Positions 10,775 through 61,260 of a DNA stretch of 64,000 bases are shown one piece after another. This stretch comes from Candidatus Woesearchaeota archaeon (GTDB taxonomy: Archaea > Nanobdellota > Nanobdellia > SCGC-AAA011-G17 > PNOQ01): positions 159,773-223,772 of the forward strand of contig CAYFOF010000001.1 of NCBI GenBank assembly GCA_964344655.1, given 5' to 3'. The notes beneath the pieces are model-generated. The model ran no database searches, had not been told where the DNA came from, and saw nothing but the letters and a program-made list of their open reading frames with translations. Every line of letters begins with the position of its first letter. Within the stretch, counting starts at the first letter, position 1. Both the position numbers and the translations under genes were made by a program.

Positions 10775-10806
10775 ATGGGGAATTTGCTTTTTTATATAAT
10801 ATTATT

Positions 10807-10827: not shown

Positions 10828-10843
10828 CCCATTTTATTTTGAT

Positions 10844-11416: not shown

Positions 11417-11432
11417 ATGGTTAATTTATTAT

Positions 11433-12177: not shown

Positions 12178-12214
12178 TGATAATCTTTAAAAAGAAATCT
12201 TTCTATTTTTTATT

Positions 12215-14311: not shown

Positions 14312-14351
14312 GATTTATAAATAATTAAATTAAAATATAGGTAAAGTGGTG

Positions 14352-14648: not shown

Positions 14649-14732
14649 GTGTAGGTAAACTGTTTTTTAGAAAGGTTTTTATATAAATTTCCTTATGTTT
14701 TTTGTAGGTAAACACAAAAAAGAGGGGATTGT

Positions 14733-44904: not shown

Positions 44905-45162
44905 ATGGAACTAAAAATTTTATCATCAGAAAAGGATTCTTTGAAAATTGAGCTGATTGGTGAGGACCATACTTTGGCGAATGCATTGAGAAATCAATTA
45001 TGGAAGGATTCTGGCCTTAAAATGGCAGGTTATAATATTGAACATCCATTGGTGAGTAATCCTGTATTGATAGTTGAAGGGAATGATCCAAAAAAGATGT
45101 TGTCTAATGCTGTTGCTGAGTTGAAGAAGAACAATTCAGAACTTATCAAAGTCTTAAAGTGA
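44905..45162 (+). CDS. rpoL: DNA-directed RNA polymerase subunit L (Rpo11)
   Basis: LKIELIGEDHTLANALRNQL...GYNIEHPL is the RpoL/Rpb11 signature. 85 aa. Confidence 0.85.
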   Translation: MELKILSSEKDSLKIELIGEDHTLANALRNQLWKDSGLKMAGYNIEHPLVSNPVLIVEGNDPKKMLSNAVAELKKNNSELIKVLK

Positions 45163-45737
45163 AGCTTAAAAAATTTTTAAAAGATGCGTGGAATTTTATT
45201 TGGCATAGTGATTCTTTACTTAGTTGGATTGTAGCATTTATTTTAGCATTTATAATTGTAAAATATGTTATTTATGTTGGTCTTGGATTAATTTTTGGGA
45301 CTGGATTTCCTATTGTTGCAGTAGTTTCTGGAAGCATGGAACATGAAGGGATGGATTTTGATTCTTGGTGGGATGAAAATTATAGATGGTATGAATCTAA
45401 TGATATTTCTAAAGAAGATTTTAATGAATTTTCGTTTAAGAATGGTTTCAATAAAGGAGATATTATGATTTTATTTGGAACTGAAGCGAAAGATATAAAT
45501 AAAGGAGATATACTTGTTTTTGAAGCAAATTCGAAGTACCCTGTGATACATAGGACTGTTAAAATTTGGTCCCAAGGAGATGAAATGCATTTCCAAACAA
45601 AAGGAGATAATAATCCTCGGGTATTTTCGGAACTTGGAGAGAATGATATTGCTGAAGATAAGATCGTTGGGAAAGCAGTATTTAGAATACCTCTTTTGGG
45701 GTGGGTAAAAATAATCTTTACGGAGTTGATAGGATGA
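45159..45737 (+). CDS. signal peptidase I, archaeal/eukaryotic Sec11 (SipW-like) type
   Basis: N-terminal TM, VVSGSMEHEG (catalytic Ser), GDILVF, VIHRTV (catalytic His) and TKGDNN. Confidence 0.8.
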   Translation: MKLKKFLKDAWNFIWHSDSLLSWIVAFILAFIIVKYVIYVGLGLIFGTGFPIVAVVSGSMEHEGMDFDSWWDENYRWYESNDISKEDFNEFSFKNGFNKGDIMILFGTEAKDINKGDILVFEANSKYPVIHRTVKIWSQGDEMHFQTKGDNNPRVFSELGENDIAEDKIVGKAVFRIPLLGWVKIIFTELIG

Positions 45738-46108: not shown

Positions 46109-46855
46109 ATGAAATTTGTTTTATCTGAGCCAAAATTGTTGAAGGATAGTATTGGAGTAATATCTGATTTAGTTAGTGATGTTAAAATAAAATTTGATTC
46201 CGATAAATTAGAAATTGTTGCGATGGACCCAGCGAATGTTGCAATGGTTGTTTTTAGATTGTTGAGTAGTTCTTTTATTGAATATGATGTTAAAGAAGGA
46301 GATAGTATTGTTTTAAGTTTGGATAGTTTGAAACAAGTTTTGGGTAGATCTAAGGCTAGTGATAGTGTTGTTTTTGAATTAAACGAAGAGACTAATAAAT
46401 TAAATATTCGTTTTGAAGGAGAAACGAAAAGAAATTTTAATTTGTCTTTATTGGAAAGTGCGGCAGGAGATCAAAAAGTTCCTGAATTGGATTTTCCGGG
46501 TTCTGTTGAATTGAATACTTTTGTTTTTAATGATGCGATAGATGATATGGATATTATTTCGGATTCTATTATTTTGAATTTGAGTAAAGAGGGATTGATG
46601 ATGGAATCTGTTGGGAACACTAGTGATGCTAAAGCAAATCTTTCTGTAAAAGAAGGGGGAGATTTAACATGCACAGACGATCCTATAAAATCAAAATATT
46701 CTATTGAATACCTTAAAAAAATTGCAAAAGGTGGCAAACTTGCTAGTAATGTTGTTTTAAAATTTGGACAAGACTATCCATTACAAATTGAGTATAAAGT
46801 GCAAGATAAATTGAGTTTGACAACTATTTTAGCCCCTCGTGTGAGCAACGATTGA
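46109..46855 (+). CDS. pcn: DNA polymerase sliding clamp PCNA
   Basis: 248 aa with a two-domain PCNA pattern (KLLKDSIGVISDLVSDVKIKFDSDKLEIVAMDPANVAMVVFRL; C-terminal LAPRV). Confidence 0.85.
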   Translation: MKFVLSEPKLLKDSIGVISDLVSDVKIKFDSDKLEIVAMDPANVAMVVFRLLSSSFIEYDVKEGDSIVLSLDSLKQVLGRSKASDSVVFELNEETNKLNIRFEGETKRNFNLSLLESAAGDQKVPELDFPGSVELNTFVFNDAIDDMDIISDSIILNLSKEGLMMESVGNTSDAKANLSVKEGGDLTCTDDPIKSKYSIEYLKKIAKGGKLASNVVLKFGQDYPLQIEYKVQDKLSLTTILAPRVSND

Positions 46856-46857
46856 TA

Positions 46858-46873
46858 GAAAGGTATTTAAATG
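46858..46873 (+). promoter_or_regulatory. BRE/TATA-like element (GAAAGGTATTTAAATG) about 29 nt upstream of the ATG at 46894
   Basis: Same motif and spacing as other promoters in the window. Supports M15 of ORF 46852 as the true start. Confidence 0.5.
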
Positions 46874-46893: not shown

Positions 46894-47736
46894 ATGAAAA
46901 AGAGAGGGCAGGTAACTATTTTTATTGTATTGGGAATTATCGTTTTAGTTGTGTTTGGTTTGTTATTTGCTCTGCGTGTTGATTTTGTTGAAGATCTTTT
47001 TGGAGGGGAGTCTGGAAGGCAGTTTGATTCAGTAGATATTGAGGCTGTTAAAGATTCTATATCTTTTTGTGTTGAAGGTTCTTTATTAGACGCAGTTAAT
47101 CATGTTTCTAATCGTGGTGGATATTTTTCACCAATTAATTCTAGTTTTTATGCGAGAGATGTTTATGGGGTTTTAGTTACTTATGCATGGACTTCTGATT
47201 ATGGTACAAGGTTGCCTAGTTTGACGGGATTGGGAGAACAAATTAAAATTTATATGGATGATTCTGATAATCGTGCTTTGATTGAAGAGTGTATTGATAA
47301 ACAATTAGAAATTTATGAAGATAGTTGGGATTTTGAAAATGTAAATGAATTTGAGTTTAAGGTTCCAAGAGTTTCTGAAAATAGTATTAAACAAGAAATA
47401 ATTTATCCTGCTAGCAAAGTTTTATCTGTTAAAGGACGTAATGGCGTAGCAACAACAACCGAAGTTTTGGCAGAACTAGATATCGCTTTGGGTCAAGCAC
47501 AAAATGTTGCGAATGAAATTGTAGATTGTTTTAACGGAAATGGATTTAGTAATGAATATTGTAATCAAGAAGGAGTTCCGTTTAGAATGAGTGTTTATAA
47601 TCTTTTAAATTATAGAAATGTGATTGGAATGTTAGAAGGAGATTGCGGAGGAGAATGTTTAGAATGTTATATCTTGAAGATTCCTGTTGAGGATGGAGAT
47701 GATATTTCATTTAATGTTAATATGAAAACATGTTAG
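46894..47736 (+). CDS. class III signal peptide (pilin-like) protein, 280 aa
   Basis: MKKRGQ|VTIFIVLGIIVLVVFGLLFAL is a prepilin-type N-terminus. The C-terminus is Cys-rich (CGGECLECY). Confidence 0.6.
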   Translation: MKKRGQVTIFIVLGIIVLVVFGLLFALRVDFVEDLFGGESGRQFDSVDIEAVKDSISFCVEGSLLDAVNHVSNRGGYFSPINSSFYARDVYGVLVTYAWTSDYGTRLPSLTGLGEQIKIYMDDSDNRALIEECIDKQLEIYEDSWDFENVNEFEFKVPRVSENSIKQEIIYPASKVLSVKGRNGVATTTEVLAELDIALGQAQNVANEIVDCFNGNGFSNEYCNQEGVPFRMSVYNLLNYRNVIGMLEGDCGGECLECYILKIPVEDGDDISFNVNMKTC

Positions 47737-50700
47737 GAATATATAAAAAAGGGATTTCAGTATTTATGTCTTTTTTAATAGTGTTTTCTACATTAGGTTT
47801 TGTTTCTGCTGATAGTCCTATTCCAGTTAGTTGTTGTTTAGATGATGGACAAGGAAATTTTTGTAGTACTTTAGAAGATGGCCAAGGTCCTGAAGTTTGT
47901 TCTTCTGAAAATTTAAGAAGTGGTTCTTGTGATTTAATTTCTCAGTGTAATGTTGGAACTTGTGTTCCTCCTGATGGCGGGGCGTGTTTATCTGATTATA
48001 CCAATGAACAATGTGATTCTATTGGTGGAGAATTTTATAATGCAATTGAAAGAGATGTTCCTGCTTGTCAATTGGGTTGTTGTGCAGATAGTTTAGAGTG
48101 TGGAATAATGCAACAACAAGAATGTAATGGAAATTTTGTTAGTTCTATAACTGATCCTGGGGCTTGTTTATTAGAATGTAGGCCTGAAACTACTGGATGT
48201 TGTGTTGAATCTAATTCTTGTAGTTATCAAACTGCTGAAGATAGTTGTAGTGGAGAATTTTTGCCTGATCAATTTTGTTATGAAAGAGATTTTTGTAATG
48301 AAAGATATGAAAGTCATGCGTATACTTATTTAGGTGATGCTAGAATTGTTCCAGAATCTGATATTGATGTTTATTGGTATGACTCTAATGGAAATATGGA
48401 AGAAAGAGTTGGAGATGTTGATAGACGTACTGGAGAAGTAGTTCCAATTCCTGGAGTGCCAGAAGGATTGCAATTGAAGGGAGATTGTGATTATCCTGAT
48501 GAAATTGCTTTTGATGCCGATGGTGCAAAAGGAGGGAAAGAAAATGCTTATTGTAAATCAACTGCGTGTGTTGTTGAATGTGAGAATTGTGAACCTTCCT
48601 CTTTCAAAAATGGAGAAACTATTTGTTTGAATATTTTTGGAGGACAATATAGTAACGAAAAGAGAAGTACTGCTTTGAGAGAATATATTTTATCTTGTGT
48701 TAATGGAGAGATACAAGCAGATGAATTAATTGAAGAAAGATCAGAAAGAATTTGTATTGATGATTCTAAAGATTTTAATGGTGTTGAGAGAATGTATGCT
48801 CGTGCTGATATTGAGAACAGATGGGAAGAATGTTTAACTTGTGGAGAGGGTGGAACATTTGATTGGTCTGGATATATTCCTGGATCTGGTGGATTAATTT
48901 TATCAGGGTTAGGAGATTGGTGTGCATCTGAAGATGGTGGTTTATTTGGTTCAGTACCTGGAAATGTTGGAGGTTCTGAAAAGTGTGAAGACTTTGGTGA
49001 TGATCAAGGTGTTGAAATGTGTTATTATGATTCTGATTTATGGTCTCCGCTAGGAAGTTGTAACCCTATTTATCCTCCTGCGAAAAGTTCTGAAGAACAA
49101 TGTGGAAAATGTGGTGGCGGAGGAGATAGTACCACAAATTTATGTACTGAACAAGAATGTAATGCTTTAGGAGATTGTCAATTTGAAGAGAGTGGCGCAT
49201 TTAGTAGTGGATTGTTAGCTTCTGGTGCATTAGCTTTAGGAAGTGCAGTTGGAGTTACCACATTAGGATATGCTTTTTGCCAATCTGTTGCATTTATTGG
49301 TTTTGAAACTTGTACTGTTGCTGTTGGACAGACTGTAACTCAATGGTTATTTGGAAGTAGTTTGTATTGGGGAGTAGCTGGAATGGTTTTAGGTACTGCT
49401 GCTGCAGATCAAAGCGATTATCAAGAATTAGATGAGTATGGTTATTCTTTCGAAAAAGAAAATGGAAAATATGATTTGGCTGCAATGATATCTTTTGCTC
49501 GTGCTTTAGAGTATGCTTTAGGAGATGAAGAGTCAGTAGAGTTAGGAGAAGATTTAGGAGAGATTGATGGTGGAAATCCTTGGGTTGCTGGAACTGCTGG
49601 AGGGTTATTAAATCTTGCTGCATATACTTTAACTAAAATTAATACTTTTGATGAAATATTATTTAATGTGGGTAGTTCATCTATACAAGATCTTGCTTTT
49701 GCGTTTGGAATTCCAAGAACTATTGGTGCTAAATTTTTCCAAGCTATGCAAAGTGTTGCGGGTATTTCTACGATATACTCTGTTTCTGAATCTATGAATA
49801 CTGGAAGTTGTGTTCCTGAAACTGCGTATACTAATAGTGATCATTGTGGAGAATGTGGTGGTGCTGAAGGACAATTTTTCTGTACTAGAGATAGGTGTGA
49901 TATTTTGGGTGGTGATGCAGGATATTGTCATTTTGAACCTAAGTTAGATGGAACTGACGATGGGATTTGTTTGCCTTCTGATCCTACAGATACAACTCCT
50001 CCAGAAATTACATATATGAATTTGAAGATGCATGATTTAGATAATTCTTTAACTGGAGAATTTGAGGTTGATGGAAATCAAATGACTACAGATTCCTTTG
50101 CATGGTTTGATGCTGTTCAGGTTAAAATAAATCTTACAACCGATGAGCCTTCAAAATGTGCAGCTGCGTTTGAAAGTGAATTAACATATGAAAGCATGGC
50201 TAGTGGAGAATTGAAGTTTGATGGATTCTTTGAAAATAGTCATGAGATAATGTTTAATTTAACATCTCAACAAAAAATGGATGGAGAAAATACTCTTTAT
50301 ATTAAATGTACTGATGTAAGTGGTGCAGCTACTGGTGAGAATGATGATAGCAATTGGATTAAAATGATATTTGGGGAAGAACCAAATGATGTTCCTCCGG
50401 AAATAATAGATATAGATCCTGCTGATGTTTTGAATTTGCCTGCTGGTACTTCAGAAGTTGAATTAAAACTAATTGTTGAAGATAGGAGAGATGAAGTTAC
50501 TGAATGTAAATATGCTGTTGCAGATGTTACAAATTATAACGATGATGGTGGAGAGGTTACATATGTTGCTAACTATGAAGATTTAAATCAATTGTTTACA
50601 AGAACTGGTACAAGAAGTTGTCCTGGATCTTCATTGCCTGATGATTGTACAGAATTTAGAGCAAATATTGTATTTGATGAATCAGAATCTCAAGAAATAG

Positions 50701-51383
50701 ATTTAACAGATTTAGGTTATGAAGAAAATGGAGTTGTTTACCCTTACACATTTGGATGTAAAGATAGTTATGATAATCCTACTTTAGTTGAGTATTCATT
50801 TTCAGTTTATCCTGGATATGAAATGGATATTGTTTATCCGGAAGAAGGAATGCAAATTTATGACAGTACACCAGAAATAAATATTACTTCAGATGTTCCG
50901 GTTTATTGTAGGTATAAACTTGATAGTGCAGAAAATTGGACTGATTTGAATGCTGGTGTTGGATTAGAATTTTATAATAATGAAGTGGAAGATTCTTTGA
51001 GTGCTAGTGTTGCGGGAGTTTCACATAATTTGGTTGTTAATTGTAGAGATTTAGGAAATGATGTTGTTGAGAAGAGTGTAAATTTCTTTGTATTGTCTGA
51101 TGCCGCGGCTCCAGCAATTACAAGAGTTTATACAACTAGTCTATTTGGAAGTGGAAAATTACATATAGAACTAAATGAAGATGCAGAATGTAAATATGAT
51201 ACTTCTGAAAGTGATTTTAATTTTGAAGATGAAGGCACTTTAATGAATGCAGTTCCTCCTGTTTATAGTGTTGATGATAGAATTTTATCAGATCATCAAA
51301 CTGCAATATGGGATTCTTTCAAATATTATATTAAATGTAGAGATGAATGGGATAATGAAGGAAGTTATACTATCTATCCATAA
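47730..51383 (+). CDS. 1217-aa cysteine-rich surface protein with an internal hydrophobic Gly/Ala-rich region and four C-terminal Ig-like modules
   Basis: N-terminus YKKG|ISVFMSFLIVFSTLGFVSA (Sec or class III signal). About 60 Cys fall in the first 460 aa. Three C-x2-CG-x-GG motifs. A hydrophobic block spans residues 487-690. Repeated ..(E/Y)C(K/R)Y.. Ig-like modules follow. Confidence 0.6.
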   Translation: MLGIYKKGISVFMSFLIVFSTLGFVSADSPIPVSCCLDDGQGNFCSTLEDGQGPEVCSSENLRSGSCDLISQCNVGTCVPPDGGACLSDYTNEQCDSIGGEFYNAIERDVPACQLGCCADSLECGIMQQQECNGNFVSSITDPGACLLECRPETTGCCVESNSCSYQTAEDSCSGEFLPDQFCYERDFCNERYESHAYTYLGDARIVPESDIDVYWYDSNGNMEERVGDVDRRTGEVVPIPGVPEGLQLKGDCDYPDEIAFDADGAKGGKENAYCKSTACVVECENCEPSSFKNGETICLNIFGGQYSNEKRSTALREYILSCVNGEIQADELIEERSERICIDDSKDFNGVERMYARADIENRWEECLTCGEGGTFDWSGYIPGSGGLILSGLGDWCASEDGGLFGSVPGNVGGSEKCEDFGDDQGVEMCYYDSDLWSPLGSCNPIYPPAKSSEEQCGKCGGGGDSTTNLCTEQECNALGDCQFEESGAFSSGLLASGALALGSAVGVTTLGYAFCQSVAFIGFETCTVAVGQTVTQWLFGSSLYWGVAGMVLGTAAADQSDYQELDEYGYSFEKENGKYDLAAMISFARALEYALGDEESVELGEDLGEIDGGNPWVAGTAGGLLNLAAYTLTKINTFDEILFNVGSSSIQDLAFAFGIPRTIGAKFFQAMQSVAGISTIYSVSESMNTGSCVPETAYTNSDHCGECGGAEGQFFCTRDRCDILGGDAGYCHFEPKLDGTDDGICLPSDPTDTTPPEITYMNLKMHDLDNSLTGEFEVDGNQMTTDSFAWFDAVQVKINLTTDEPSKCAAAFESELTYESMASGELKFDGFFENSHEIMFNLTSQQKMDGENTLYIKCTDVSGAATGENDDSNWIKMIFGEEPNDVPPEIIDIDPADVLNLPAGTSEVELKLIVEDRRDEVTECKYAVADVTNYNDDGGEVTYVANYEDLNQLFTRTGTRSCPGSSLPDDCTEFRANIVFDESESQEIDLTDLGYEENGVVYPYTFGCKDSYDNPTLVEYSFSVYPGYEMDIVYPEEGMQIYDSTPEINITSDVPVYCRYKLDSAENWTDLNAGVGLEFYNNEVEDSLSASVAGVSHNLVVNCRDLGNDVVEKSVNFFVLSDAAAPAITRVYTTSLFGSGKLHIELNEDAECKYDTSESDFNFEDEGTLMNAVPPVYSVDDRILSDHQTAIWDSFKYYIKCRDEWDNEGSYTIYP

Positions 51384-51400
51384 ACCTTTTGAAAAGGTTT
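51382..51400. promoter_or_regulatory. perfect palindrome AAACCTTTT-G-AAAAGGTTT immediately after the stop codon
   Basis: 9-nt arms, starting 1 nt after the TAA at 51381-51383. Either a terminator-like hairpin or a dimeric protein-binding site. Confidence 0.45.
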
Positions 51401-51441
51401 ATCATCCCAAAATAATCCTTAAGAAGGATTATCATTCCAAA
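51394..51441 (+). repeat. 18-nt direct repeat (AAGGTTTATCATCCCAAA / AAGGATTATCATTCCAAA), copies 30 nt apart
   Basis: 16 of 18 positions are identical. The first copy overlaps the right arm of the palindrome, and the second ends 9 nt before the ATG at 51450. Confidence 0.6.
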
Positions 51442-51449
51442 CTAGAAAA

Positions 51450-51920
51450 ATGAAAAAAGGACAAATTATGGGGCAACCGATTATATACATTTTCTATGCG
51501 GTAGTTGCTGCCATGATATTATTTTTTGGGATTAGAGTTATTATTGGTTTGCAAGATACTGGGGATGATGTTGAATATGCTAGTTTTATTTCTGATTTGA
51601 AAGCTTCAATTGAGACTGTTTATAATGATGCTAGTGGAAGTACTTATGGTTTGGAAAGAATTACTGTCCCTAGAGATATAATTGAAGTTTGTTTTGTTGG
51701 AGATTATGAAGAAGATGTTGTTGGCGATCCTGAATTAGACCAGAGGATACAATTAATAGATGATTATTCTGAAGATAATTTGTTCTTCGGCGGGGTTGAA
51801 ATTGATAAGCACAAATATAAAATAGATGTTGTTGTGAATGGAATTATTTGTGATAGTACAAGGGATAGGAAATTAAATTTAATTCTAGAAAATATGGGAA
51901 CTTATGTTGAAGTTAAATAA
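51450..51920 (+). CDS. class III signal peptide (pilin-like) protein, 156 aa
   Basis: MKKGQ|IMGQPIIYIFYAVVAAMILFFGIRVI. Confidence 0.55.
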   Translation: MKKGQIMGQPIIYIFYAVVAAMILFFGIRVIIGLQDTGDDVEYASFISDLKASIETVYNDASGSTYGLERITVPRDIIEVCFVGDYEEDVVGDPELDQRIQLIDDYSEDNLFFGGVEIDKHKYKIDVVVNGIICDSTRDRKLNLILENMGTYVEVK

Positions 51921-51955
51921 AAATATATTTAAATGGTTATTTTCATTTTTAGCTT

Positions 51956-52786
51956 ATGAATAAAAGAGGTCAATTAGATGTTCAGTTTAATTTAGTTTTT
52001 GTTATTATAGTTGGGATAATTGTCTTTGCTTTTTTTATGTTTTTTTTATTTAAGTATATGGAGTTAGAAGAACATAAAGAGGCAGTTGAAATTAGTAGAA
52101 GTATTGATGGAATAATAACTGGATTGAAAACTCAAACACAGTATAAGGAATTGGATGTCAATTATAATTTTAATTTAGATGTTAATTGTAATGAAATAGT
52201 TATTAATAATCAAATTCCAGGACAAGAAATTAATTCTATTTTCTTTGGTAGTTCTGGAAGTGATAATAATTTGTTAATTTGGTCTCAAGAACTTAGTAAT
52301 GGATTTAGTATTGATAATTTACTTTATTTAGTTGATTTAAATAAGAAATATTATTCTAATAATATTGGGTTTTTTAATCCTGAAATGGTTGATGTTGGAA
52401 GTAATGTTGATTATGATGTTGGGGTTTATTTTGGAGAATGTCCTTCTGTTTCTGGGAAAAAAATAATTTGTGTTGATCAAGATTTAGTAGACGGAGAGAG
52501 TTATTCTTTATTTGATGATTCTTTGATTTATGGGGCCGCATTTTCTGATTTAGAACAATTTGAATGTAGTTATTCTAGGATTGTTTCTAAGTGGATTAAC
52601 TTGTTTGATATTTATATTAGTAAAAATTCTGTGATGAATGATTGTTCTGGAGTTAGATATTCTATTGATGTTGAGTTGAGAGCTTTACGTTCTTCTTTAG
52701 TTTTAGGAAATTATGATATTGATGTTTCTAATTTAGTTGATTTAAATTATAGGTTGAGTGATTCTGGTTGTGGGGTGTTATTTTAA
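51956..52786 (+). CDS. class III signal peptide (pilin-like) protein, 276 aa
   Basis: MNKRGQ|LDVQFNLVFVIIVGIIVFAFFMFFLF. Confidence 0.6.
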   Translation: MNKRGQLDVQFNLVFVIIVGIIVFAFFMFFLFKYMELEEHKEAVEISRSIDGIITGLKTQTQYKELDVNYNFNLDVNCNEIVINNQIPGQEINSIFFGSSGSDNNLLIWSQELSNGFSIDNLLYLVDLNKKYYSNNIGFFNPEMVDVGSNVDYDVGVYFGECPSVSGKKIICVDQDLVDGESYSLFDDSLIYGAAFSDLEQFECSYSRIVSKWINLFDIYISKNSVMNDCSGVRYSIDVELRALRSSLVLGNYDIDVSNLVDLNYRLSDSGCGVLF

Positions 52787-53229
52787 TGAATCGTCGAGGA
52801 CAAGTAGGGATTAATGAAACAATATTAGTTATGTTTGTGTTTTTTGTTATATTGATGTTAGGGATGGTTTTATTTTTCCAATTTAATATGAATAATTCTC
52901 GTAAAGAAATTGAAGAATATCAAGAGTTTAAATTTAAGCAATTAATTAGTGTTGTTCCGTCGATGAATGAATTAAAATATTCTAAATTGGGTGTTGAAGA
53001 TGAATGGTGTATTGATTTATTGAAAGCCCGTGCATTTTCTTCAATTAGTGATTCTTATGATTTTGGAAGAAAGAGAATAAGTCTGTTTTCTTCAGAAAAT
53101 ATTGTTTTGTATGATAAGATTTCTTCTCGTGCAACGTCTATTCGTGTAGTCAATAGTCCTGTTTGCGTTTTTGATCCTCGAAGTGGATTGTTTAGTTTGG
53201 CAGAGTTGGAGGTAAAATGGGAAAACTAG
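52786..53229 (+). CDS. class III signal peptide (pilin-like) protein, 147 aa
   Basis: MNRRGQ|VGINETILVMFVFFVILMLGMVLFF. The start at M7 of the ORF overlaps the upstream stop (TAATG). Confidence 0.6.
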   Translation: MNRRGQVGINETILVMFVFFVILMLGMVLFFQFNMNNSRKEIEEYQEFKFKQLISVVPSMNELKYSKLGVEDEWCIDLLKARAFSSISDSYDFGRKRISLFSSENIVLYDKISSRATSIRVVNSPVCVFDPRSGLFSLAELEVKWEN

Positions 53230-53618
53230 GACAGGTTGAAACTATGGGGTTGGTGATAATTGTTGTTTTAATAGTATTGTTGGGGGTGTTTTTTTTAGCT
53301 TTTAATCTTCGAGGAGAGGTTTCTCCAGAAGATAGGGTGTTTTTGGGTGTGAAAGCAGGAAATTTAGCAAATTCTTTGAAATCTGTTGGAGTTGGTAGTC
53401 TTTTTGTGGATTGGTGTAATGGAGATAGTTCTAAAGAGGATGAGATTGAAGAGATGATTTTGCCTGGATTTGAGATGATTGATGAGGATGTTTCATTAGT
53501 TTTTGAGTGTTTTGATGGGCGTTCTTTGGTTTTTGGCGATTGTCCGACGGGAATTGTGTCTGAAGATATTTCTTTATCGTCGGGACATAGTTTTTTTGCT
53601 AGGATTTGTGCTAAATAG
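53217..53618 (+). CDS. class III signal peptide (pilin-like) protein, 133 aa
   Basis: MGKLGQ|VETMGLVIIVVLIVLLGVFFLAF. 13-nt overlap with the upstream gene. Confidence 0.55.
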   Translation: MGKLGQVETMGLVIIVVLIVLLGVFFLAFNLRGEVSPEDRVFLGVKAGNLANSLKSVGVGSLFVDWCNGDSSKEDEIEEMILPGFEMIDEDVSLVFECFDGRSLVFGDCPTGIVSEDISLSSGHSFFARICAK

Positions 53619-53815: not shown

Positions 53816-55969
53816 ATGAAAAAATTTATTAGAAAAGTAGCAGCTGTTGGTGCTGGTGTTGCAATGTTAGGTTCAACATTTGGTGGTGCATTAGCTGCAG
53901 ATTTGGCAGACTTGCCTAGTCCATTTATTGGAAGTAATGGTCAATATGCAAGCACTGCAATGGTTATTGGTAGCTCAGAAGACGCTGCCGCAAGGACGAC
54001 TTTAGTAAACTATTTTGACGGCATGGTTGAAACTGCTGCAGGATTGGGTACTCAAATAGTTACAGAAGAAATTAAGTTGCAAGAAAATGTTGCAACAAGT
54101 AGTGGATTAGACACTGTTTATGATGATAGTGATTCAACTATTTTCGATGATGGTGAAGTGAGTGTTGGTGGGTCAAGTTATGATTACCATACTGAATTAC
54201 AAATAACAAACACTGCTAATAATTTCGACATGGAAACTAGTTTGACTAGTAGCGATGATAAATATGAATTAGATCCTAAATTGGAAATCAAGAAGGATGC
54301 AATAAGATATTGTTATGTATTTGATGAAGCTATTAACATTAGTGCACAAGTAAGTACTTCAAATCCATTTGATATGCAATTCTTAGGAAAAAGTGTTAGA
54401 ATAGACACAGTTTCTGACAACGATACGTTCATTGCACAAGTTGGAGATTCTTGGTCTGGACACCCTGGTGAAATGTACACTGGAAATGGAATTACGATGG
54501 AAGTTATTTCTGTAGATGGTACTAGTGCTATTATTGATTTCGGTGGAGATCAAAGAACTATTGCTGAAGCAGGAACAGTTTCTAAAGGGGAAATAGATGT
54601 TTACTTAGACACTGCAATTGCTGGTGTTGGTTCAGCTAGTGAGGCTGTAGCTACATTTATCATTGGTGAAGATGCTAGATTAACGGTTAACTCTGGTGAC
54701 AAATATACTGACTACTGTTCTCCAGCAGACGGACATGGAGATCCAGATTGTGACAAGAATAATCCTGACTGGGTATGGAACTTTGGTGGATTAACTGATA
54801 ATGCTGTTTCTGGTGCAGTAAACGATATTTGTGTAGAAAACGACTTTGAAGCATATAATTTCAATAAAGATCCTGCCGGAATTGGTGAATACTATGGATT
54901 GCCAGGCGGATATGCTTATGTTGGTGTAGATAGCCTTAACGTAGCTAGTGATGACTATATGACTGTTGAAATGTTCACAGAAACTGGAAATACTGAAGAT
55001 CTATCTAATGCAGGAGCTTTCCCTACTTCAGCTATTGTTTTAACAATAACTGCAAGTGAGAGTGAAGGATTGGTTCTTGATGAAAGTGGATTTACATCTG
55101 AAATTTTAACTGGTGACACAAAGACAGATGAAATTTATGTATGGACAAACACAACATTTGCAGGTACAGCTAATAACGCTACATTGTTCTTCTATAAAGA
55201 TTCAAACAATGCGGTGCAACATGCAGGAAACATAAGTTATCATGCAGCAGCTACAGTTAATTGGGGTTACTTGAACTACAAGAACACTAAATCTACTGAT
55301 GTACTTCTGTCATCTTACGGAAAACCTGGAACTGATGATGGATACTATGTTGGATTTGTGCCTGACAACTCTAGTGATGCAAACGACAACCTATGGTTCA
55401 GAATACAATCTGCGAATGCTACAGATGGTAACTACTTAGGATTTGGTGACACTGATGATGCAGAATCTGATGAAGTAATTTGGGGAGCAACATTAACTCC
55501 AACAACAACATCTGCTACAACTGGTACTACAAACATCTTTGCTGGTGCTAAGAAATATGACTTGTTGACAGGATATGGACTTCAAATTTCAGACACTGAC
55601 TCATCTGGAGATGATGATAGTTTCACTATCAAAGTTCCTGGTGACCAAGTGAAAGCTAATGTAGCCATTTATGAAGGTGGAGCTGCAACAACAACTTCAG
55701 CTGACTTATTAGATGCTACAGAGAGTACAACTGGCTATACTAACTTAATCTTAGTTGGTGGACCATGTGTAAATAGCTTGACTGCGGAGTTCATGGGATT
55801 AACATTCCCTGCTTGTGAAGCTGCATCCGGAATTGCACAAGATAAAGCAATTATTGAGTTCGTAGATATGGGATCTCAAACTGCTTTGGTTGTTGCTGGA
55901 TGGGAAAAAGCTGACACACAAAGAGCAGCAACAAAGATAGCTGCTGGAGAAGCAGCAGCGATTGTGTAA
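53816..55969 (+). CDS. S-layer protein (Methanococcales S_layer_N / S_layer_C type)
   Basis: Signal peptide ..GGALAADLADLP. The body is rich in Thr, Ser, Asp, Gly and Ala. The C-terminus NLILVGGPCVNSLTAEF...ALVVAGWEKADTQRAATKIAAG parallels the Methanococcus voltae S-layer end (NLVLVGGPVANKLTKEL...VIVVAGGDREKTREAALELI, recalled from memory). GC is elevated and an SD site is present. Confidence 0.7.
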   Translation: MKKFIRKVAAVGAGVAMLGSTFGGALAADLADLPSPFIGSNGQYASTAMVIGSSEDAAARTTLVNYFDGMVETAAGLGTQIVTEEIKLQENVATSSGLDTVYDDSDSTIFDDGEVSVGGSSYDYHTELQITNTANNFDMETSLTSSDDKYELDPKLEIKKDAIRYCYVFDEAINISAQVSTSNPFDMQFLGKSVRIDTVSDNDTFIAQVGDSWSGHPGEMYTGNGITMEVISVDGTSAIIDFGGDQRTIAEAGTVSKGEIDVYLDTAIAGVGSASEAVATFIIGEDARLTVNSGDKYTDYCSPADGHGDPDCDKNNPDWVWNFGGLTDNAVSGAVNDICVENDFEAYNFNKDPAGIGEYYGLPGGYAYVGVDSLNVASDDYMTVEMFTETGNTEDLSNAGAFPTSAIVLTITASESEGLVLDESGFTSEILTGDTKTDEIYVWTNTTFAGTANNATLFFYKDSNNAVQHAGNISYHAAATVNWGYLNYKNTKSTDVLLSSYGKPGTDDGYYVGFVPDNSSDANDNLWFRIQSANATDGNYLGFGDTDDAESDEVIWGATLTPTTTSATTGTTNIFAGAKKYDLLTGYGLQISDTDSSGDDDSFTIKVPGDQVKANVAIYEGGAATTTSADLLDATESTTGYTNLILVGGPCVNSLTAEFMGLTFPACEAASGIAQDKAIIEFVDMGSQTALVVAGWEKADTQRAATKIAAGEAAAIV

Positions 55970-56057: not shown

Positions 56058-56540
56058 ATGGCTAAGAAGAAAAATAATAGTAAAGTTTATTTTGGTATTT
56101 TTATTGCTTTTTTGATGGTGAGTAGCACCATAGGTTTTATGTATGGTGGTGGTGCGGAAACTAAAAAGATTAATGGTTATAAATTTACTAGGGTTGATGG
56201 GGGTTGGCAAACCTATATTGAAGAAATAGAATCTTATTGGTTGTTTACTTATTTACCTAATGAGATAAATTTTGATGTAGGTTTTTATGATTTTAATGTA
56301 TATTCAGAAGATGAAACATCTAAACAATATGAAGATAAGCTTAAATTTATAATGCTTTATTCTGGTGTTGTTGTGGATTCTTTGGAAGAAAAAGAATGTA
56401 ATGGAGATAGGATGATGTTGGTTTTAAAACATTCGTATGACGATGTTTCGATTACTTCTGAAGAAAATTGCGTTTATATTAATGGAAACCTTAATAAATT
56501 TGTTGATGGTATTACATACAAAATATTTGGAGTGATTTAA
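56058..56540 (+). CDS. membrane-anchored hypothetical protein
   Basis: Basic N-terminus plus one TM (VYFGIFIAFLMVSSTIGFMYGG). No family recognised. Confidence 0.45.
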   Translation: MAKKKNNSKVYFGIFIAFLMVSSTIGFMYGGGAETKKINGYKFTRVDGGWQTYIEEIESYWLFTYLPNEINFDVGFYDFNVYSEDETSKQYEDKLKFIMLYSGVVVDSLEEKECNGDRMMLVLKHSYDDVSITSEENCVYINGNLNKFVDGITYKIFGVI

Positions 56541-56542
56541 GA

Positions 56543-57214
56543 ATGAATAGAAATATAATATTGGTTGTTGGACTTGTTTTTTTGGTAGCTATGTTTGTTC
56601 CTGTTATAAATGGCAGTCCTGTTGGCATGGTTATTTATGATAAGGTTCAAGGAATAGGGGAGTATGAGTATACTGGTGTTAGTGGAGAATCTTATACTTT
56701 TGATAAAACTAGAATTGGACAAAATCTTAGACATATACTTTCTTTTGAGATGAAGAAAATTTCTGATAATGGCCGTAGTGTAATAAAAACAGCAAAAATT
56801 CCATTTAGATATGGCCCAGAAGAATTGGAAAAAATATCAATGGAGTATGTTAGAAGAGATATATTATTCTCAGAAGTAATATATGTTACAAGGGATAAAA
56901 ATTTAGAGGGAACTGAAATAAGTCCTGTAGCTATACCTACTATTGGAAGAATCTTGGATTCTGAGTGGGATACTTCTTTGAGTTTGTTTGAGATTCCTAC
57001 TGGTTTAGCATCTACAGTTGCGATGCCTTATGAAGATTTGCCAGTGATATCTTGTGGTCAATCTACTCCGGAAAGAACAGTTATTGAATTTAGACATGGT
57101 GATGAAAATAAAATCTATGCTGAGGGAGAGTGTGTCATTGTGGAGTCGAAAGGGTATGATGATTCTATAAAAGTTGCTACAAAATTGGCTTACCATGTTT
57201 TGGGGATAATGTAA
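56543..57214 (+). CDS. secreted or membrane-anchored hypothetical protein
   Basis: N-terminal hydrophobic segment (IILVVGLVFLVAMFVPVING). Only 2 nt downstream of the previous gene. Confidence 0.45.
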   Translation: MNRNIILVVGLVFLVAMFVPVINGSPVGMVIYDKVQGIGEYEYTGVSGESYTFDKTRIGQNLRHILSFEMKKISDNGRSVIKTAKIPFRYGPEELEKISMEYVRRDILFSEVIYVTRDKNLEGTEISPVAIPTIGRILDSEWDTSLSLFEIPTGLASTVAMPYEDLPVISCGQSTPERTVIEFRHGDENKIYAEGECVIVESKGYDDSIKVATKLAYHVLGIM

Positions 57215-58760: not shown

Positions 58761-60218
58761 TTACTTTATATTGAATATTTGAGAGATTTCCTTTCTTGCG
58801 TAAGTTAGTTTTTCTTTATTTTCCGCATATATTGTTAATATTTTTTCTCCTTTTTTTATTTTGTCATTTAATTTTTTATGTAAATAAACTCCGGCTCCCT
58901 TATTGTTGGGTGCTCCAGCAATTCTGGCTAAATTTGAGATTTTTTTATTATCTATTTCTTTTATTTTCCCAGATTTTGGGGATTTATAATCACAAGAATA
59001 TTTTCCTATGCTGATTTTTTCTGGTTTTATAGAAGGATTTCCCTTTTGAGCTTTTATTATTTCTTTGAATTTTTTATATGCTTTTCCAGATTCTAATATT
59101 TTCTTGGCAGATGCTTTTGTTTTTGTTAATTTGAATATTTTATCTGCCATCATTATAGCTTTTTTTTCTAAATCTTTTGGAGCATCTTCCTCTTGTCTTA
59201 GTATTTTTAGAATATCTCTTGCTTCTAATGCGGGGCCAATTCCGTTTCCTATTGGTTGATTTCCATTTGTGATTATTACTTTTGTTTTTATATTTAGAAC
59301 TTTTGATATTTTTTCAAATCTTCTTTTTAATATTTTAGCTTCTTTTTTTGTTTTAACTTTTGCATTTTTTCCAATTGGGATGTCTAATAATAAATGTGTT
59401 GCTCCAACTGCATGTTTTTTTGCTAATATGGATGCAATCATTAATCCTGGAGGATCTAATCTCAATGGGTGTCTTATTTTAATTAATTTTGAATCTGCTC
59501 CTGTAATTTCCATCCCCTCATTCCAAACCATGCAAGCATTTGTTTTTTTTACTATTTGCTTCATTTGGGTTGTGTTGAAACTTACTTTTGATAGAACTTC
59601 CATTGTGTCTGCTGTTCCTGCGGGACTTGTAATTGCTCTGGAAGAAGTTTTTGGAATTGTTAATCCTGCTGCTGCAATTATTGGAGTAATTAGAATTGAT
59701 GTTCTGTTGTTTGGAACCCCCCCTATACAGTGCTTATCTGCTATTAATCTTTTATTTAATTTTAGTTTTGTTCCTTCTTTTAAGGTAGCTTTTGTTAAGT
59801 ATATAACTTCTTTATCTGTTAAATTGTTATCATAACATCCTGCTACGAAATATGCAATCTCAACTTCTGAAAGATTGTTTGATGTTAAATCATTTATTAT
59901 AGAATCTATTTCTTTTTTTGTTAATTCTTTTCCGTCCAGTTTATTTTTTATTGCTTTTACAGATTTTGGAGTTTCAGCAGGAAACACATTTAGTTTGTTT
60001 TTTGTATTTAGTTTTTTTTGTGTTTCATTGAATAATCCTATCTTTCCTTTAGGAATGTCTGGAGATATATCTATTAATGCATGGATTATTTTTTTTCTAT
60101 TTATTATTTTTATTCTATCAAATGCATGTGTTTTTAATTCTTCCGCGTCTTTTTCATTTAAGACTACAATCAATGGTCCCCCGGAGGAGATATTTAATTT
60201 TTTAGGAGTTAGTTGCAT
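58761..60218 (-). CDS. deoA: AMP phosphorylase (thymidine phosphorylase family, DeoA-like)
   Basis: DKHCIGGVPNNRTS and TSSRAITSPAGTADTME motifs. It has the extra N-terminal domain typical of archaeal AMP phosphorylase and sits with rbcL and e2b2. Confidence 0.8.
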   Translation of the reverse strand: MQLTPKKLNISSGGPLIVVLNEKDAEELKTHAFDRIKIINRKKIIHALIDISPDIPKGKIGLFNETQKKLNTKNKLNVFPAETPKSVKAIKNKLDGKELTKKEIDSIINDLTSNNLSEVEIAYFVAGCYDNNLTDKEVIYLTKATLKEGTKLKLNKRLIADKHCIGGVPNNRTSILITPIIAAAGLTIPKTSSRAITSPAGTADTMEVLSKVSFNTTQMKQIVKKTNACMVWNEGMEITGADSKLIKIRHPLRLDPPGLMIASILAKKHAVGATHLLLDIPIGKNAKVKTKKEAKILKRRFEKISKVLNIKTKVIITNGNQPIGNGIGPALEARDILKILRQEEDAPKDLEKKAIMMADKIFKLTKTKASAKKILESGKAYKKFKEIIKAQKGNPSIKPEKISIGKYSCDYKSPKSGKIKEIDNKKISNLARIAGAPNNKGAGVYLHKKLNDKIKKGEKILTIYAENKEKLTYARKEISQIFNIK

Positions 60219-61218
60219 TTTCTTCTTCGTAAATTCTATAGATTACAAATAGTATAGATAGTATTAATGGTCCTACAATTATTCCTGGAATTCCCATGAA
60301 ACTTATTCCACCTAATACTCCTAGAAGTATTATCATCGGGTTAATATTAGATCCCCTACCCATCATTTTGGGTTTTACAATATTATCTAAGTATGAGATT
60401 AATCCAAATGAATAAATTAATAGGAATATGGCATTGGTTATATCTCCAATTATTGCCAGGTAAATTGCTGCAGGAACATATACCGTTGCAGGCCCTATTA
60501 TTGGGAAATATGCTGCTAAGAGTATTACGAATGACCAAATTAATGGATTTGGAATATTAAATAAGTAAAATCCTATGAATGCGACTATTCCTTCAAGTAT
60601 TGCAACTATTAAGATTCCAGAAAGTAATCCTCTAATAACGTTGTTTATTTCTTTGAATAGTTTCTTTTCTAGATCATCTCTTATTGGAAGGAATTTTCTT
60701 AATTTATTTACAAATCTTCGTCCATCTTTTAGGAAAAAGAATAATGTGAAGAAGAATATGAAGAAATTTAAGAATCCTCTGACTAATGTTTCTAGTAAAC
60801 TTGCACTAGATAATATAAATATATTTGAAATTTCTTGTATGGATTCTTTTATGTGTCTTTCAAAGTTTATATCTAATCCGGTTATTTCTTTTAAATTATT
60901 TGAGAAACCTTCAAGTTCTAGGGCGCTAGCAGTATTGTAAAGACTTATTGTTTCATCTAGTAATCGGTTTGTGAAAAAAATTAAGGGAATTATAATAAAT
61001 ATAAATATTAATAGAATAACTAAAAGGCTTGAAATTGTTTTTTTATTCGTTTTTTTATGGATCTTTTTGTATAATGGATAAACTGCTATTGCTACCACTG
61101 CTGCCCCCAATAATGGAACAATAAAAGGAGCAATTATTCTGTATGATAGGTATAATAATACTAAAATTAATGTAATTACTATGAATTTTGAATATTTTGA
61201 AAATGTAAATTGTTCCAT
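60202..61218 (-). CDS. AI-2E family transporter (PerM-like permease)
   Basis: About 8 TM helices. The C-terminal LLGVLGGISFMGIPGIIVGPLILSIL is typical of AI-2E/PerM proteins. Confidence 0.7.
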   Translation of the reverse strand: MEQFTFSKYSKFIVITLILVLLYLSYRIIAPFIVPLLGAAVVAIAVYPLYKKIHKKTNKKTISSLLVILLIFIFIIIPLIFFTNRLLDETISLYNTASALELEGFSNNLKEITGLDINFERHIKESIQEISNIFILSSASLLETLVRGFLNFFIFFFTLFFFLKDGRRFVNKLRKFLPIRDDLEKKLFKEINNVIRGLLSGILIVAILEGIVAFIGFYLFNIPNPLIWSFVILLAAYFPIIGPATVYVPAAIYLAIIGDITNAIFLLIYSFGLISYLDNIVKPKMMGRGSNINPMIILLGVLGGISFMGIPGIIVGPLILSILFVIYRIYEEENATNS

Positions 61219-61260
61219 AATGTTTTTTAGGATTAATTCTTTATAAATATATTTATTACT

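What the first reader, a model, noticed from the sequence alone, without database searches (positions are those of the whole stretch)
46894..53618. Minor-pilin/PilY1-like operon: five class III signal-peptide proteins around a 1217-aa Cys-rich protein, directly upstream of the S-layer gene
Five ORFs begin with a basic residue pair, G-Q, then about 20 hydrophobic residues: MKKRGQ|V.., MKKGQ|I.., MNKRGQ|L.., MNRRGQ|V.. and MGKLGQ|V... This is the archaeal prepilin (class III) signature. They are packed with overlaps (TAATG, 13 nt, 7 nt) around a giant secreted protein. The arrangement mirrors bacterial fimU-pilVWXY1E operons, in which several minor pilins and one adhesin of about 1200 aa prime and tip a type IV pilus. 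No assembly ATPase, platform protein or prepilin peptidase lies in the window. The block begins with its own promoter immediately after PCNA and ends 200 nt before the S-layer gene. I am not aware of a described archaeal equivalent of a PilY1-type tip complex.
Basis: partly seen in the sequence, partly recalled or inferred. Interest (0 to 1): 0.75.

Follow-up and report, generated by a model that had tools for sequence, protein, structure and literature searches.

The report
DPANN pilin-like genes plus giant adhesin
Five pilin-like genes and one giant cysteine-rich surface-protein gene sit in a fixed order beside the S-layer gene in hundreds of Woesearchaeota/Pacearchaeota genomes; they most likely build a short pilus-like fibre that displays an adhesin, an arrangement already proposed for other archaea.

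Summary
Five adjacent same-strand ORFs (46894-53618) start with M-x(1-3)-[KRL]-G-Q followed by about 20 hydrophobic residues. These are the only such ORFs in all six frames of the window (5 observed, 0.01 expected). They flank a 1217-aa protein with a Sec signal peptide and 60 cysteines.

The order PCNA, pA, giant, pB, pC, pD, pE, S-layer, d1, d2 is conserved across Woese/Pacearchaeota, down to about 22% giant identity. At least 209 species genomes encode a giant relative. The pA-giant pair is tandemly duplicated in some lineages.

The cleavage motif (K/R-G|Q-V/I/L) matches the EppA-processed Epd pilins of Methanococcus. The five families resemble each other only in the N-terminal 30-60 residues, as pilins do.

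The giant is not a PilY1 homologue: it has no beta-propeller, vWA or DUF2341 domain. The model shows a Cys-rich N-terminal half, a hydrophobic helical centre and tandem Ig-like domains.

No ATPase, platform protein or peptidase lies in the window or in about 110 related loci. The literature reports flaI/J/K in Woesearchaeota, including AR20, which carries the cluster.

PilY-like adhesins with at least five minor pilins were already proposed for archaeal type IV pili (Makarova 2016). My verdict is a new variant of a known kind, of moderate interest.

The parts
46864..46871 (+). TATTTAAA, a TATA-box-like element centred about 27 nt upstream of the pA ATG, in the 38-nt spacer after PCNA. It is a putative promoter for a leaderless transcript.
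   Evidence: Read directly from the sequence. This is inference only. No archaeal promoter tool was available, and A+T-rich DNA gives such motifs easily.
46894..47736 (+). pA, a 280-aa prepilin-like protein (MKKRG|QVTIFIVLG...) and the dedicated partner of the giant.
   Evidence: ORF. The motif is conserved in 81 of 88 homologues, and Q6 is invariant. At least 258 homologous clusters exist, all unnamed Pace/Woese/Nanoarchaeota proteins. The AF2 model has pLDDT 85 with helix 4-36 plus an alpha/beta domain, and no PDB fold match. A 200-340-aa class III ORF with Gln at +1 lies directly upstream of 52 of 82 assessable giant copies; the pair is tandemly repeated in about 21 of 72 loci.
47730..51383 (+). 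Giant, a 1217-aa Sec-secreted surface protein. It has a Cys-rich N-terminal region (about residues 30-485, 41 Cys), a hydrophobic helical centre rich in Gly/Ala/Ser/Thr (about 486-690), a small Cys knot, and four to five Ig-like beta-sandwich domains (about 760-1217).
   Evidence: Searches give the composition and hydropathy. About 50 Cys columns are invariant in 24-34 homologues. The AF2 model has pLDDT 77. Foldseek matches only tandem Ig/cadherin arrays, GhpA hook fragments and phage tail-fibre Ig arrays. There is no Pfam, NCBIfam or PDB-sequence hit. The family has 3955 representatives at E<=1e-3.
51450..51920 (+). pB, a 156-aa prepilin-like protein (MKKG|QIMGQPIIYIF...).
   Evidence: 37 of 38 homologues flagged; Q5, P10 and F15 nearly invariant; two invariant Cys. 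There is a weak, non-significant PDB match to the N-terminal helix of PilE1 (E=0.11).
51956..52786 (+). pC, a 276-aa prepilin-like protein (MNKRG|QLDVQFNLVFV...).
   Evidence: It resembles pB only over the first 70 or so residues (hhalign probability 95).
52786..53229 (+). pD, a 147-aa prepilin-like protein (MNRRG|QVGINETILV...) with an invariant Glu at +6.
   Evidence: E11 invariant. At least 123 homologous clusters exist, including AR20 protein QT11_C0001G0480. Three of 22 members give weak Flp1_like hits (best E=0.032).
53217..53618 (+). pE, a 133-aa prepilin-like protein (MGKLG|QVETMGLVIIV...) with an acidic residue at +3.
   Evidence: Q6 invariant, four invariant Cys.
53816..55969 (+). 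S-layer protein gene (717 aa; Sec signal; no C-terminal transmembrane anchor). It is the conserved downstream neighbour and has its own TATA-like elements and a GGAGGTG ribosome-binding site.
   Evidence: Pfam S_layer_C E=3.8e-8, above the cut-off. Upstream sequence. It follows pE in nearly all loci that extend far enough. Local GC is higher than the surroundings.
56058..57214 (+). d1 (56058-56540, 160 aa) and d2 (56543-57214, 223 aa), two small proteins with N-terminal hydrophobic segments, conserved directly downstream of the S-layer gene.
   Evidence: No family hit. Whether they belong to the system is not established.

Best explanation
This block is the pilin-plus-adhesin module of an Epd-like (EppA-type, +1 Gln) type IV filament system specific to Woese/Pacearchaeota.

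The proposed mechanism, step by step:
1. The five small proteins insert into the membrane by their class III signals.
2. An A24 prepilin peptidase encoded elsewhere cuts them after Gly.
3. A FlaI/PilB-type ATPase and a FlaJ/TadC platform, also encoded elsewhere, extract them.
4. Their N-terminal helices pack into a short fibre or tip complex, playing the role of a minor-pilin set.
5. The giant is exported by Sec. It is held on this fibre by pA, its co-duplicating partner. It presents disulfide-rich and Ig-like domains beyond the S-layer as an adhesin, plausibly for contact with host cells or surfaces.

What is shown: the signal motif and its deep conservation; five families that are alike only in the N-terminal helix; the fixed gene order next to the S-layer gene; the co-duplication of pA with the giant; and the domain make-up of the giant.

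What is inferred: cleavage, ATPase-driven assembly, the pA-giant contact, the adhesin role and the host-contact role.
For: - The motif occurs 5 times against 0.01 expected, and only in this block.
- Gly at -1 and Gln at +1 are invariant or nearly so in five families across about 80 loci. An ordinary signal anchor would not need them.
- The site equals the EppA substrates KGQV, KGQV, KGQL and KGQI, and EppA requires Gln at +1 (PMC4371748).
- The families share only their first 30-60 residues, which is the pilin pattern.
- pD keeps an invariant Glu and pE an acidic residue in the N-terminal segment.
- The pA model has a 33-residue N-terminal helix.
- Synteny is conserved down to about 22% giant identity and in at least 209 species.
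- A pA-like class III ORF with Gln at +1 lies directly upstream of 52 of 82 assessable giant copies, and the pair is tandemly repeated in about 21 of 72 loci.
- The giant has a Sec signal and tandem Ig-like domains like those of adhesion molecules.
- There is precedent. Clade-1 archaeal T4P loci carry at least 5 minor pilins plus large putative tip adhesins. System 1 is reported in DPANN.
- flaI/J/K are reported in Woesearchaeota including AR20, an A24A peptidase is annotated in AR15, and AR20 carries this cluster.
Against: - No ATPase, platform protein or peptidase lies in the window or in the roughly 10-kb flanks of about 110 related loci. In Methanococcus, by contrast, the Epd pilins sit with their machinery.
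- One paper states that T4P components are missing in DPANN genomes.
- No pilin Pfam or NCBIfam model matches.
- pA's globular domain is alpha/beta with no match to solved pilins.
- No obvious small major pilin is present.
- The Epd-type Glu at +5 is not conserved at that position.
- The strict tie to the main S-layer gene, and the hydrophobic centre of the giant, are not explained by a simple tip-adhesin model.
Confidence: 0.55

Rival explanations
1. S-layer-associated envelope complex without a filament. In this reading the five pilin-like proteins, cleaved or not, stay anchored in the membrane by their N-terminal helices or form only a pseudopilus-like stub. Together with the giant, d1 and d2 they would anchor, space or locally open the S-layer, whose own protein has no membrane anchor.
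For: - The pB-pE genes lie immediately upstream of the main S-layer gene in nearly every locus, followed by d1 and d2.
- The S-layer protein ends without a transmembrane segment.
- The cluster is single-copy, core and in a housekeeping neighbourhood (RpoL, signal peptidase, TFS, PCNA), not with pilus machinery.
- The giant has 2-4 conserved, moderately hydrophobic central helices that could embed in the membrane.
- The literature proposes S-layer-like or S-layer-priming proteins in archaeal TFF loci.
Against: - Conserved Gly at -1 and Gln at +1 point to peptidase processing, which is typical of proteins destined for assembly.
- Tandem duplication and rapid divergence of the pA-giant pair fit a variable adhesin better than a structural anchor.
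- In some lineages the pA-giant module sits apart from the pB-pE/S-layer module (for example L026, L039, L055).
- The hydrophobic centre is below the usual transmembrane threshold in the window protein (maximum KD 1.58).
Confidence: 0.25
2. Ordinary type II signal-anchor membrane proteins. In this reading the K/R-G-Q motif is a lineage-specific topogenic or start-context feature, the proteins are never cleaved, and they have nothing to do with type IV filaments.
For: - No pilin HMM matches.
- No machinery lies nearby.
- He et al. state that T4P is missing in DPANN.
Against: - Five unrelated families keep the same Gly-Gln at the same distance from Met across very deep divergence.
- The motif occurs nowhere else in the window, whereas other membrane and secreted proteins there lack it.
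- The site is identical to experimentally verified EppA sites.
- flaI/J/K and A24 annotations exist in Woesearchaeota.
Confidence: 0.08
3. A true homologue of the bacterial FimU-PilVWX-PilY1-PilE tip complex, inherited or transferred from bacteria.
For: The count is the same (five pilin-like proteins plus one Sec-secreted protein of about 1200 aa), and the operon logic is similar.
Against: - There is no PilY1/PilC propeller, vWA or DUF2341 domain by Pfam.
- Foldseek's best PDB matches are Ig arrays only.
- The profile-against-PDB sequence search found nothing.
- The signal is of the archaeal EppA type (Gln at +1), not the bacterial type (Phe/Met at +1 with Glu at +5).
- All named homologues are Nanoarchaeia.
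Confidence: 0.02

Closest known systems
Epd pili of Methanococcus maripaludis (clade 1 / system 1 archaeal type IV pili; EpdA-E pilins processed by EppA)
   Same: - Several different pilin-like proteins lie in one locus, five in each case.
- The class III site is K/R-G|Q-[VIL] with the Gln at +1 that EppA requires.
- Large putative adhesins are encoded among the minor pilins.
- System 1 is reported in DPANN.
   Different: - Here there is no ATPase, no TadC pair, no EppA and no MinD-like ATPase in or near the locus.
- Pfam shows no family shared with known pilins (no Class_IIIsignal or other pilin model hit). The Epd pilin sequences themselves were not compared.
- The Glu at +5 is not conserved at that position.
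- The giant lacks the DUF2341 domain.
- The locus is fixed next to the main S-layer gene.
Bacterial minor-pilin/PilY1 tip complex (P. aeruginosa fimU-pilVWXY1E; related to T2SS GspHIJK)
   Same: Five pilin-like genes plus one non-pilin, Sec-exported protein of about 1200 aa are tightly packed. The presumed logic is a priming or tip complex that presents an adhesin.
   Different: - There is no sequence or fold homology: no beta-propeller and no vWA domain.
- The signal is of the archaeal Gln +1 type.
- The giant has a Cys-rich half, a hydrophobic helical centre and Ig-like repeats.
Large Ig-fold adhesin-like proteins of archaeal TFF loci (for example arCOG05616/arCOG07037) and the Aureispira grappling-hook protein GhpA
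   Same: The C-terminal half of the giant is a string of beta-sandwich domains. GhpA fragments are among the Foldseek hits (ranks 11 and 37). Such proteins are described beside archaeal pilin genes.
   Different: The similarity is generic to Ig-like arrays (TM-scores 0.1-0.2). The N-terminal 41-Cys region and the hydrophobic centre have no counterpart in these proteins.
Sulfolobus bindosome: class III signal proteins that function at the cell surface without forming a long pilus
   Same: It is a precedent for prepilin-type proteins forming a surface-associated assembly close to the S-layer rather than a long fibre.
   Different: Bindosome subunits are sugar-binding proteins and have a dedicated Bas ATPase/platform locus. 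Nothing of that kind is seen here.

Membership tests
Archaeal type IV pilin-like (class III signal peptide) proteins | Short basic leader ending in Gly/Ala at -1, followed by a hydrophobic stretch of about 20 residues | tested here: met
   All five ORFs meet it. It is conserved in 81/88 pA, 37/38 pB, 21/22 pC, 29/35 pD and 12/12 pE homologues. The pA model has helix 4-36.
Archaeal type IV pilin-like (class III signal peptide) proteins | EppA-type site: Gln at +1 (K/R-G-Q-hydrophobic) | tested here: met
   Gln at +1 is invariant or at least 90% conserved in alignments A2, A3, A5 and A6; the summary does not list it among the at-least-90% columns of A4 (pC), where it is the majority residue. The reference sites KGQV, KGQL and KGQI come from PMC4371748 Table 1.
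Archaeal type IV pilin-like (class III signal peptide) proteins | Match to a curated pilin or class III signal model (Pfam Class_IIIsignal, Pilin_N, Flp1_like; NCBIfam) | tested here: not met
   No family reaches threshold. The only trace is Flp1_like in 3 of 22 pD members, with best E=0.032.
Archaeal type IV pilin-like (class III signal peptide) proteins | Conserved acidic residue in the N-terminal helix (Glu at +5 in bacterial and Epd pilins) | tested here: inconclusive
   pD has an invariant Glu at +6 and pE has Glu/Asp at +3. pA, pB and pC have none.
Archaeal type IV pilin-like (class III signal peptide) proteins | Cognate A24 prepilin peptidase, FlaI/PilB ATPase and FlaJ/TadC platform in the same genome | tested here: inconclusive
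   No Walker-A secretion ATPase in the window's ORFs of 100 aa or more or in the flanks of the related loci scanned for one (L001-L097). An A24-like motif was scanned only in L001-L081, and no test specific for a platform protein was run. The rest of this genome cannot be read with these tools. The literature reports flaI/J/K in Woesearchaeota including AR20 and an A24A peptidase in AR15, and AR20 carries the cluster. He et al. state the opposite for DPANN in general.
Archaeal type IV pilin-like (class III signal peptide) proteins | Actual cleavage after Gly and incorporation into a filament | not testable with these tools
   This needs proteomics or N-terminal sequencing, and imaging.
PilY1/PilC pilus-tip adhesins | C-terminal seven-bladed beta-propeller (Pfam Neisseria_PilC/PilY1 domain) | tested here: not met
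   There is no Pfam hit at E<=1. The model's C-terminal half is made of beta-sandwich domains. The top 50 PDB matches are Ig/cadherin arrays and include no PilY1.
PilY1/PilC pilus-tip adhesins | N-terminal vWA domain | tested here: not met
   No Pfam or NCBIfam hit. The N-terminal half is modelled as Cys-rich beta-hairpin modules.
PilY1/PilC pilus-tip adhesins | Non-pilin Sec signal, and the gene embedded among minor-pilin genes | tested here: met
   The N-terminus MLGIYKKGISVFMSFLIVFSTLGFVSA|DSP is a Sec-type signal. The gene is flanked by pA and pB-pE.
Archaeal clade-1 T4P adhesins (arCOG03508 and relatives, Makarova 2016) | DUF2341 domain | tested here: not met
   No Pfam hit on the giant at E<=1.
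Archaeal clade-1 T4P adhesins (arCOG03508 and relatives, Makarova 2016) | Co-location with at least 5 class III signal proteins | tested here: met
   Five such proteins are in the window. In related loci the modal count is four between the last giant and the S-layer gene, plus pA upstream.
Archaeal clade-1 T4P adhesins (arCOG03508 and relatives, Makarova 2016) | Co-location with a clade-1 ATPase, two TadC genes and EppA | tested here: not met
   No Walker-A ATPase in the window or in the flanks of loci L001-L097, and no A24-like motif in L001-L081. TadC genes were not searched for specifically.

The most novel reading that the evidence does not exclude
The block is not a pilus tip. It would instead be a DPANN-specific envelope machine wired to the S-layer. 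A stub of four processed pilin-like proteins, tied to the S-layer gene, would carry one to three pA-giant units. The conserved hydrophobic helical centre of the giant (rich in Gly/Ala/Ser/Thr), lying between two disulfide-locked ectodomains, would insert into the partner cell's membrane. That would make it a contact-site, pore or fusion device for the cytoplasmic bridges seen in DPANN-host pairs. The evidence does not exclude this. The centre is conserved in character across the family, AlphaFold models it as helices of low confidence, and no known fold explains the N-terminal half.
Probability: 0.12. Interest if true: 0.85.

Novelty: new variant of a known kind. Interest (0 to 1): 0.5.

Why it matters
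Woesearchaeota and Pacearchaeota are among the most abundant uncultured archaea, and how they attach to partners is unknown. This block is a core, single-locus, clade-wide set of surface genes with no family annotation. The giant family alone has about 4000 representative clusters at 50% identity.

If the block builds an adhesive fibre, it is the prime candidate for the host-contact apparatus. The duplicated and divergent pA-giant pairs would then be candidate determinants of host range.

It also supplies concrete targets for proteomics, antibodies and subtomogram averaging. Its fixed link to the S-layer gene gives a testable handle on how filaments and S-layers are coordinated in archaea.

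Tried and rejected
- Pfam and NCBIfam scans of all six proteins, the S-layer protein, d1 and d2 gave only S_layer_C. Member-wise Pfam scans of the pD and pE families gave nothing significant.
- Profile searches of all six families against PDB sequences found nothing significant. The only traces were N-terminal-helix matches to PilE1 and PilA at E=0.11 and 1.1.
- A fold search of pA found no match (best E=0.046, TM about 0.1). Fold searches of the giant against PDB and BFVD returned only generic Ig arrays, with no PilY1 and no viral fusion protein.
- I looked for pilus machinery in several ways. Walker-A and A24-motif scans of the loci flanks and the window found nothing. Pfam on the window's membrane proteins gave MASE3 and AI-2E only. 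Extending beyond the window ends failed because only short contigs were found. I followed the sixth class III protein (35177-35710) to 13 loci in the hope of finding an adjacent ATPase, and found none.
- I could not read whole related genomes, so I fell back on the literature, which is contradictory.
- An independent synteny survey anchored on pD first failed because no conserved stretch was available. The second attempt returned only 15 loci, and all were consistent with the earlier result.
- The giant has no sequence similarity to the S-layer protein or to the window's 1763-aa surface protein.
- I rejected homology to bacterial PilY1 operons and an ordinary signal-anchor reading, for the reasons given under the rival explanations.

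Full report
**What is in the sequence.** The window is about 31% G+C DNA from a Woesearchaeota-like DPANN archaeon; the closest relatives of its proteins are all named Woesearchaeota, Pacearchaeota or Nanoarchaeia. Between PCNA (46109-46855) and a 717-aa S-layer gene (53816-55969; Pfam S_layer_C at 33.6 bits against a cut-off of 23.9) lie six tightly packed same-strand ORFs:
- pA 46894-47736 (280 aa)
- giant 47730-51383 (1217 aa)
- pB 51450-51920 (156 aa)
- pC 51956-52786 (276 aa)
- pD 52786-53229 (147 aa)
- pE 53217-53618 (133 aa)

The five small proteins begin MKKRG|Q, MKKG|Q, MNKRG|Q, MNRRG|Q and MGKLG|Q, each followed by a long uncharged segment. A six-frame scan for this pattern finds exactly these five ORFs in 64 kb. 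Block-shuffled DNA gives 0.01 per window. The giant has a Sec-type signal peptide and 60 cysteines. The only correction is that the expected cut is after Gly, not after Gln.

**Conservation.** The giant has 41 homologous 90%-identity clusters in the word-indexed search, all unnamed. An exhaustive profile search finds 3955 representatives at 50% identity with E<=1e-3, of which 1264 have E<=1e-30. Members that carry a name are Nanoarchaeia or Pacearchaeota.

A scan of one genome per species found relatives in 209 genomes, and I fetched 80 loci. After labelling their ORFs by BLAST to the window proteins and by the class III rule, the order is ...RpoL, signal peptidase, TFS, PCNA, pA, giant, pB, pC, pD, pE, S-layer, d1, d2. 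This order recurs down to about 22-30% giant identity. It also holds in loci recovered independently through pD and in an AR20-like contig.

In more distant (Pacearchaeota-type) lineages the pA-giant pair is repeated two or three times in tandem. Of 82 assessable giant copies, 52 have a 200-340-aa class III ORF with Gln at +1 directly upstream. In a few lineages the pA-giant module lies apart from pB-pE and the S-layer gene.

**Are the small proteins prepilin-like?** Gly at -1 and Gln at +1 are invariant or nearly invariant in four of the five family alignments; for pC the summary shows Gln only as the majority residue, and the motif is present in the great majority of homologues. Profile-profile comparison shows that the five families resemble each other only over the first 30-60 residues and are otherwise unrelated. 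That is the classic pilin pattern.

pD keeps an invariant Glu at +6, and pE keeps an acidic residue at +3. AlphaFold models pA (pLDDT 85) with a helix at residues 4-36 followed by an alpha/beta domain.

The site K/R-G-Q-[VIL] is identical to the verified processing sites of M. maripaludis EpdB-E (KGQV, KGQV, KGQL, KGQI). Their dedicated peptidase EppA requires Gln at +1 (PMC4371748).

Against membership, no curated pilin model matches. Sequence searches of PDB give only insignificant N-helix matches. pA's globular domain matches no solved fold.

**What is the giant?** Pfam, NCBIfam and the PDB sequence search give nothing. About 50 cysteine columns are invariant across the family. The AlphaFold model of the mature protein (pLDDT 77) has three regions. 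In the numbers below, model residue n corresponds to residue n+29 of the full protein.
- A Cys-rich N-terminal half made of small beta-hairpin modules (model residues about 1-460).
- A helical centre of low confidence (model residues 464-660).
- Four to five beta-sandwich domains (model residues about 660-1188).

Foldseek matches only generic tandem Ig, cadherin or fibronectin arrays. These include fragments of the Aureispira grappling-hook protein and phage tail-fibre Ig arrays. No PilY1 propeller and no fusion protein appears.

The centre is rich in Gly/Ala/Ser/Thr (about 40%) and has 2-4 moderately hydrophobic helices. This character is conserved across the family but sits near or below the usual transmembrane threshold. 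'PilY1-like' is therefore an analogy of position and size, not homology.

**The machinery question.** The window contains no secretion-type ATPase. Of its roughly 65 ORFs, 19 were scanned with Pfam and none matched a platform protein or an A24 peptidase; for the remaining ORFs the absence of these two rests on my reading of their N-termini. The 10-kb flanks of loci L001-L097 hold no Walker-A ATPase either; an A24-like motif was looked for only in L001-L081, and platform proteins were not searched for in the loci. I could not read whole genomes with these tools.

The literature is mixed:
- He et al. say T4P components are missing in DPANN.
- Liu et al. 2018 report flaI, flaJ and flaK in Woesearchaeota, including AR20. 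Their supplement lists an A24A prepilin peptidase in AR15 and a FlaJ in AR13.
- Other DPANN lineages are reported to carry T4P.
- Sivabalasarma and Albers place system 1 (Epd-like) loci in DPANN.

AR20, a complete genome, carries this cluster. The clade therefore very probably has the machinery, but for this particular genome the point remains untested.

**Most likely mechanism (confidence about 0.55).** The five proteins are EppA-type prepilins. They would be cut after Gly and assembled through their N-terminal helices into a short fibre or tip complex that acts as a minor-pilin set. The Sec-exported giant, coupled through its co-duplicating partner pA, would be displayed beyond the S-layer as an adhesin. 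The motif, the conservation, the synteny, the co-duplication and the domain make-up are shown. Cleavage, assembly, the pA-giant contact and the adhesive or host-contact role are inferred.

**Rivals.**
- A non-filamentous envelope complex linked to the S-layer (about 0.25). It is favoured by the strict adjacency to the main S-layer gene, the anchor-less S-layer protein, the housekeeping neighbourhood and the hydrophobic centre of the giant.
- Uncleaved signal anchors (about 0.08). This is disfavoured by the invariant Gly-Gln in five unrelated families.
- True PilY1-operon homology (about 0.02). This was tested and not met.

**Comparison with what is known.** The closest known system is the Epd (clade 1 / system 1) archaeal type IV pilus. 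Makarova et al. 2016 explicitly modelled PilY-like tip adhesins plus at least five minor pilins for it, and noted S-layer-like proteins in T4P loci. The 2026 preprint repeats this and extends it to DPANN.

What is new here:
- A Woese/Pacearchaeota-wide set of protein families with no annotation.
- The giant's unusual architecture.
- The fixed position beside the S-layer gene and away from any machinery.
- The modular duplication of the pA-giant pair.

I rate it a new variant of a known kind, with interest 0.5.

Noticed in passing
window 35177-35710 (-): A sixth class III-like protein, 177 aa, MKSKKGA|IELSMTTIIVIVIG. It is of the Ala/Ile type, not the Gln type, so it may be a substrate of a different (FlaK/PibD-like) peptidase or a candidate major pilin. 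It is conserved in 13 related genomes, and no pilus machinery lies beside it.
   Followed up: partly
window 10775-24717 (+): A second block of secreted or surface proteins. It holds two paralogous proteins of about 200 aa (10775-11395 and 11584-12177) that share the motif LLTG[KR]ATDT..T.LTV.GV.SCTA.DN.IAFGTMERG. It also holds two proteins with weak FixG_C-like Ig hits (12215-13357 and 20021-21226) and a 1763-aa protein (14733-20024). This may be another surface fibre or adhesin system.
   Followed up: no
window 51384-51449: The 66-nt spacer between the giant and pB contains two short perfect palindromes, AACCTTTTGAAAAGGTT and AATCCTTAAGAAGGATT. They could be an attenuator, a terminator or a binding site that separates expression of the pA-giant pair from that of pB-pE.
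   Followed up: no
L098 7971-8565 (AR20-like contig): A 77-aa ORF plus a PIN-domain ORF, which looks like a toxin-antitoxin pair, is inserted between the giant and pB in this relative. The cluster therefore tolerates insertions at that junction.
   Followed up: no
window 58761-63964 (-): AMP phosphorylase, an AI-2E family transporter, form III RuBisCO, a HAD hydrolase and an e2b2/IF-2B-like isomerase lie together. This is the archaeal AMP/nucleotide-salvage RuBisCO pathway typical of DPANN.
   Followed up: partly
window 53816-55969: The S-layer gene region has markedly higher G+C (0.378) than its surroundings (about 0.31). It also has a long 5' leader with TATA-like elements and a strong GGAGGTG ribosome-binding site, consistent with very high expression.
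   Followed up: no
P0302, P0383: Two metagenomic proteins of about 6000 aa contain 14-16 copies of the giant's C-terminal Ig-like module. The module therefore also occurs in much larger repeat proteins.
   Followed up: no
window 45159-45737 (+): A 192-aa ORF that reads by eye like a type I signal peptidase gets no Pfam hit. It sits in the conserved RpoL / this ORF / TFS / PCNA string immediately upstream of the surface-gene block in nearly all related loci.
   Followed up: no
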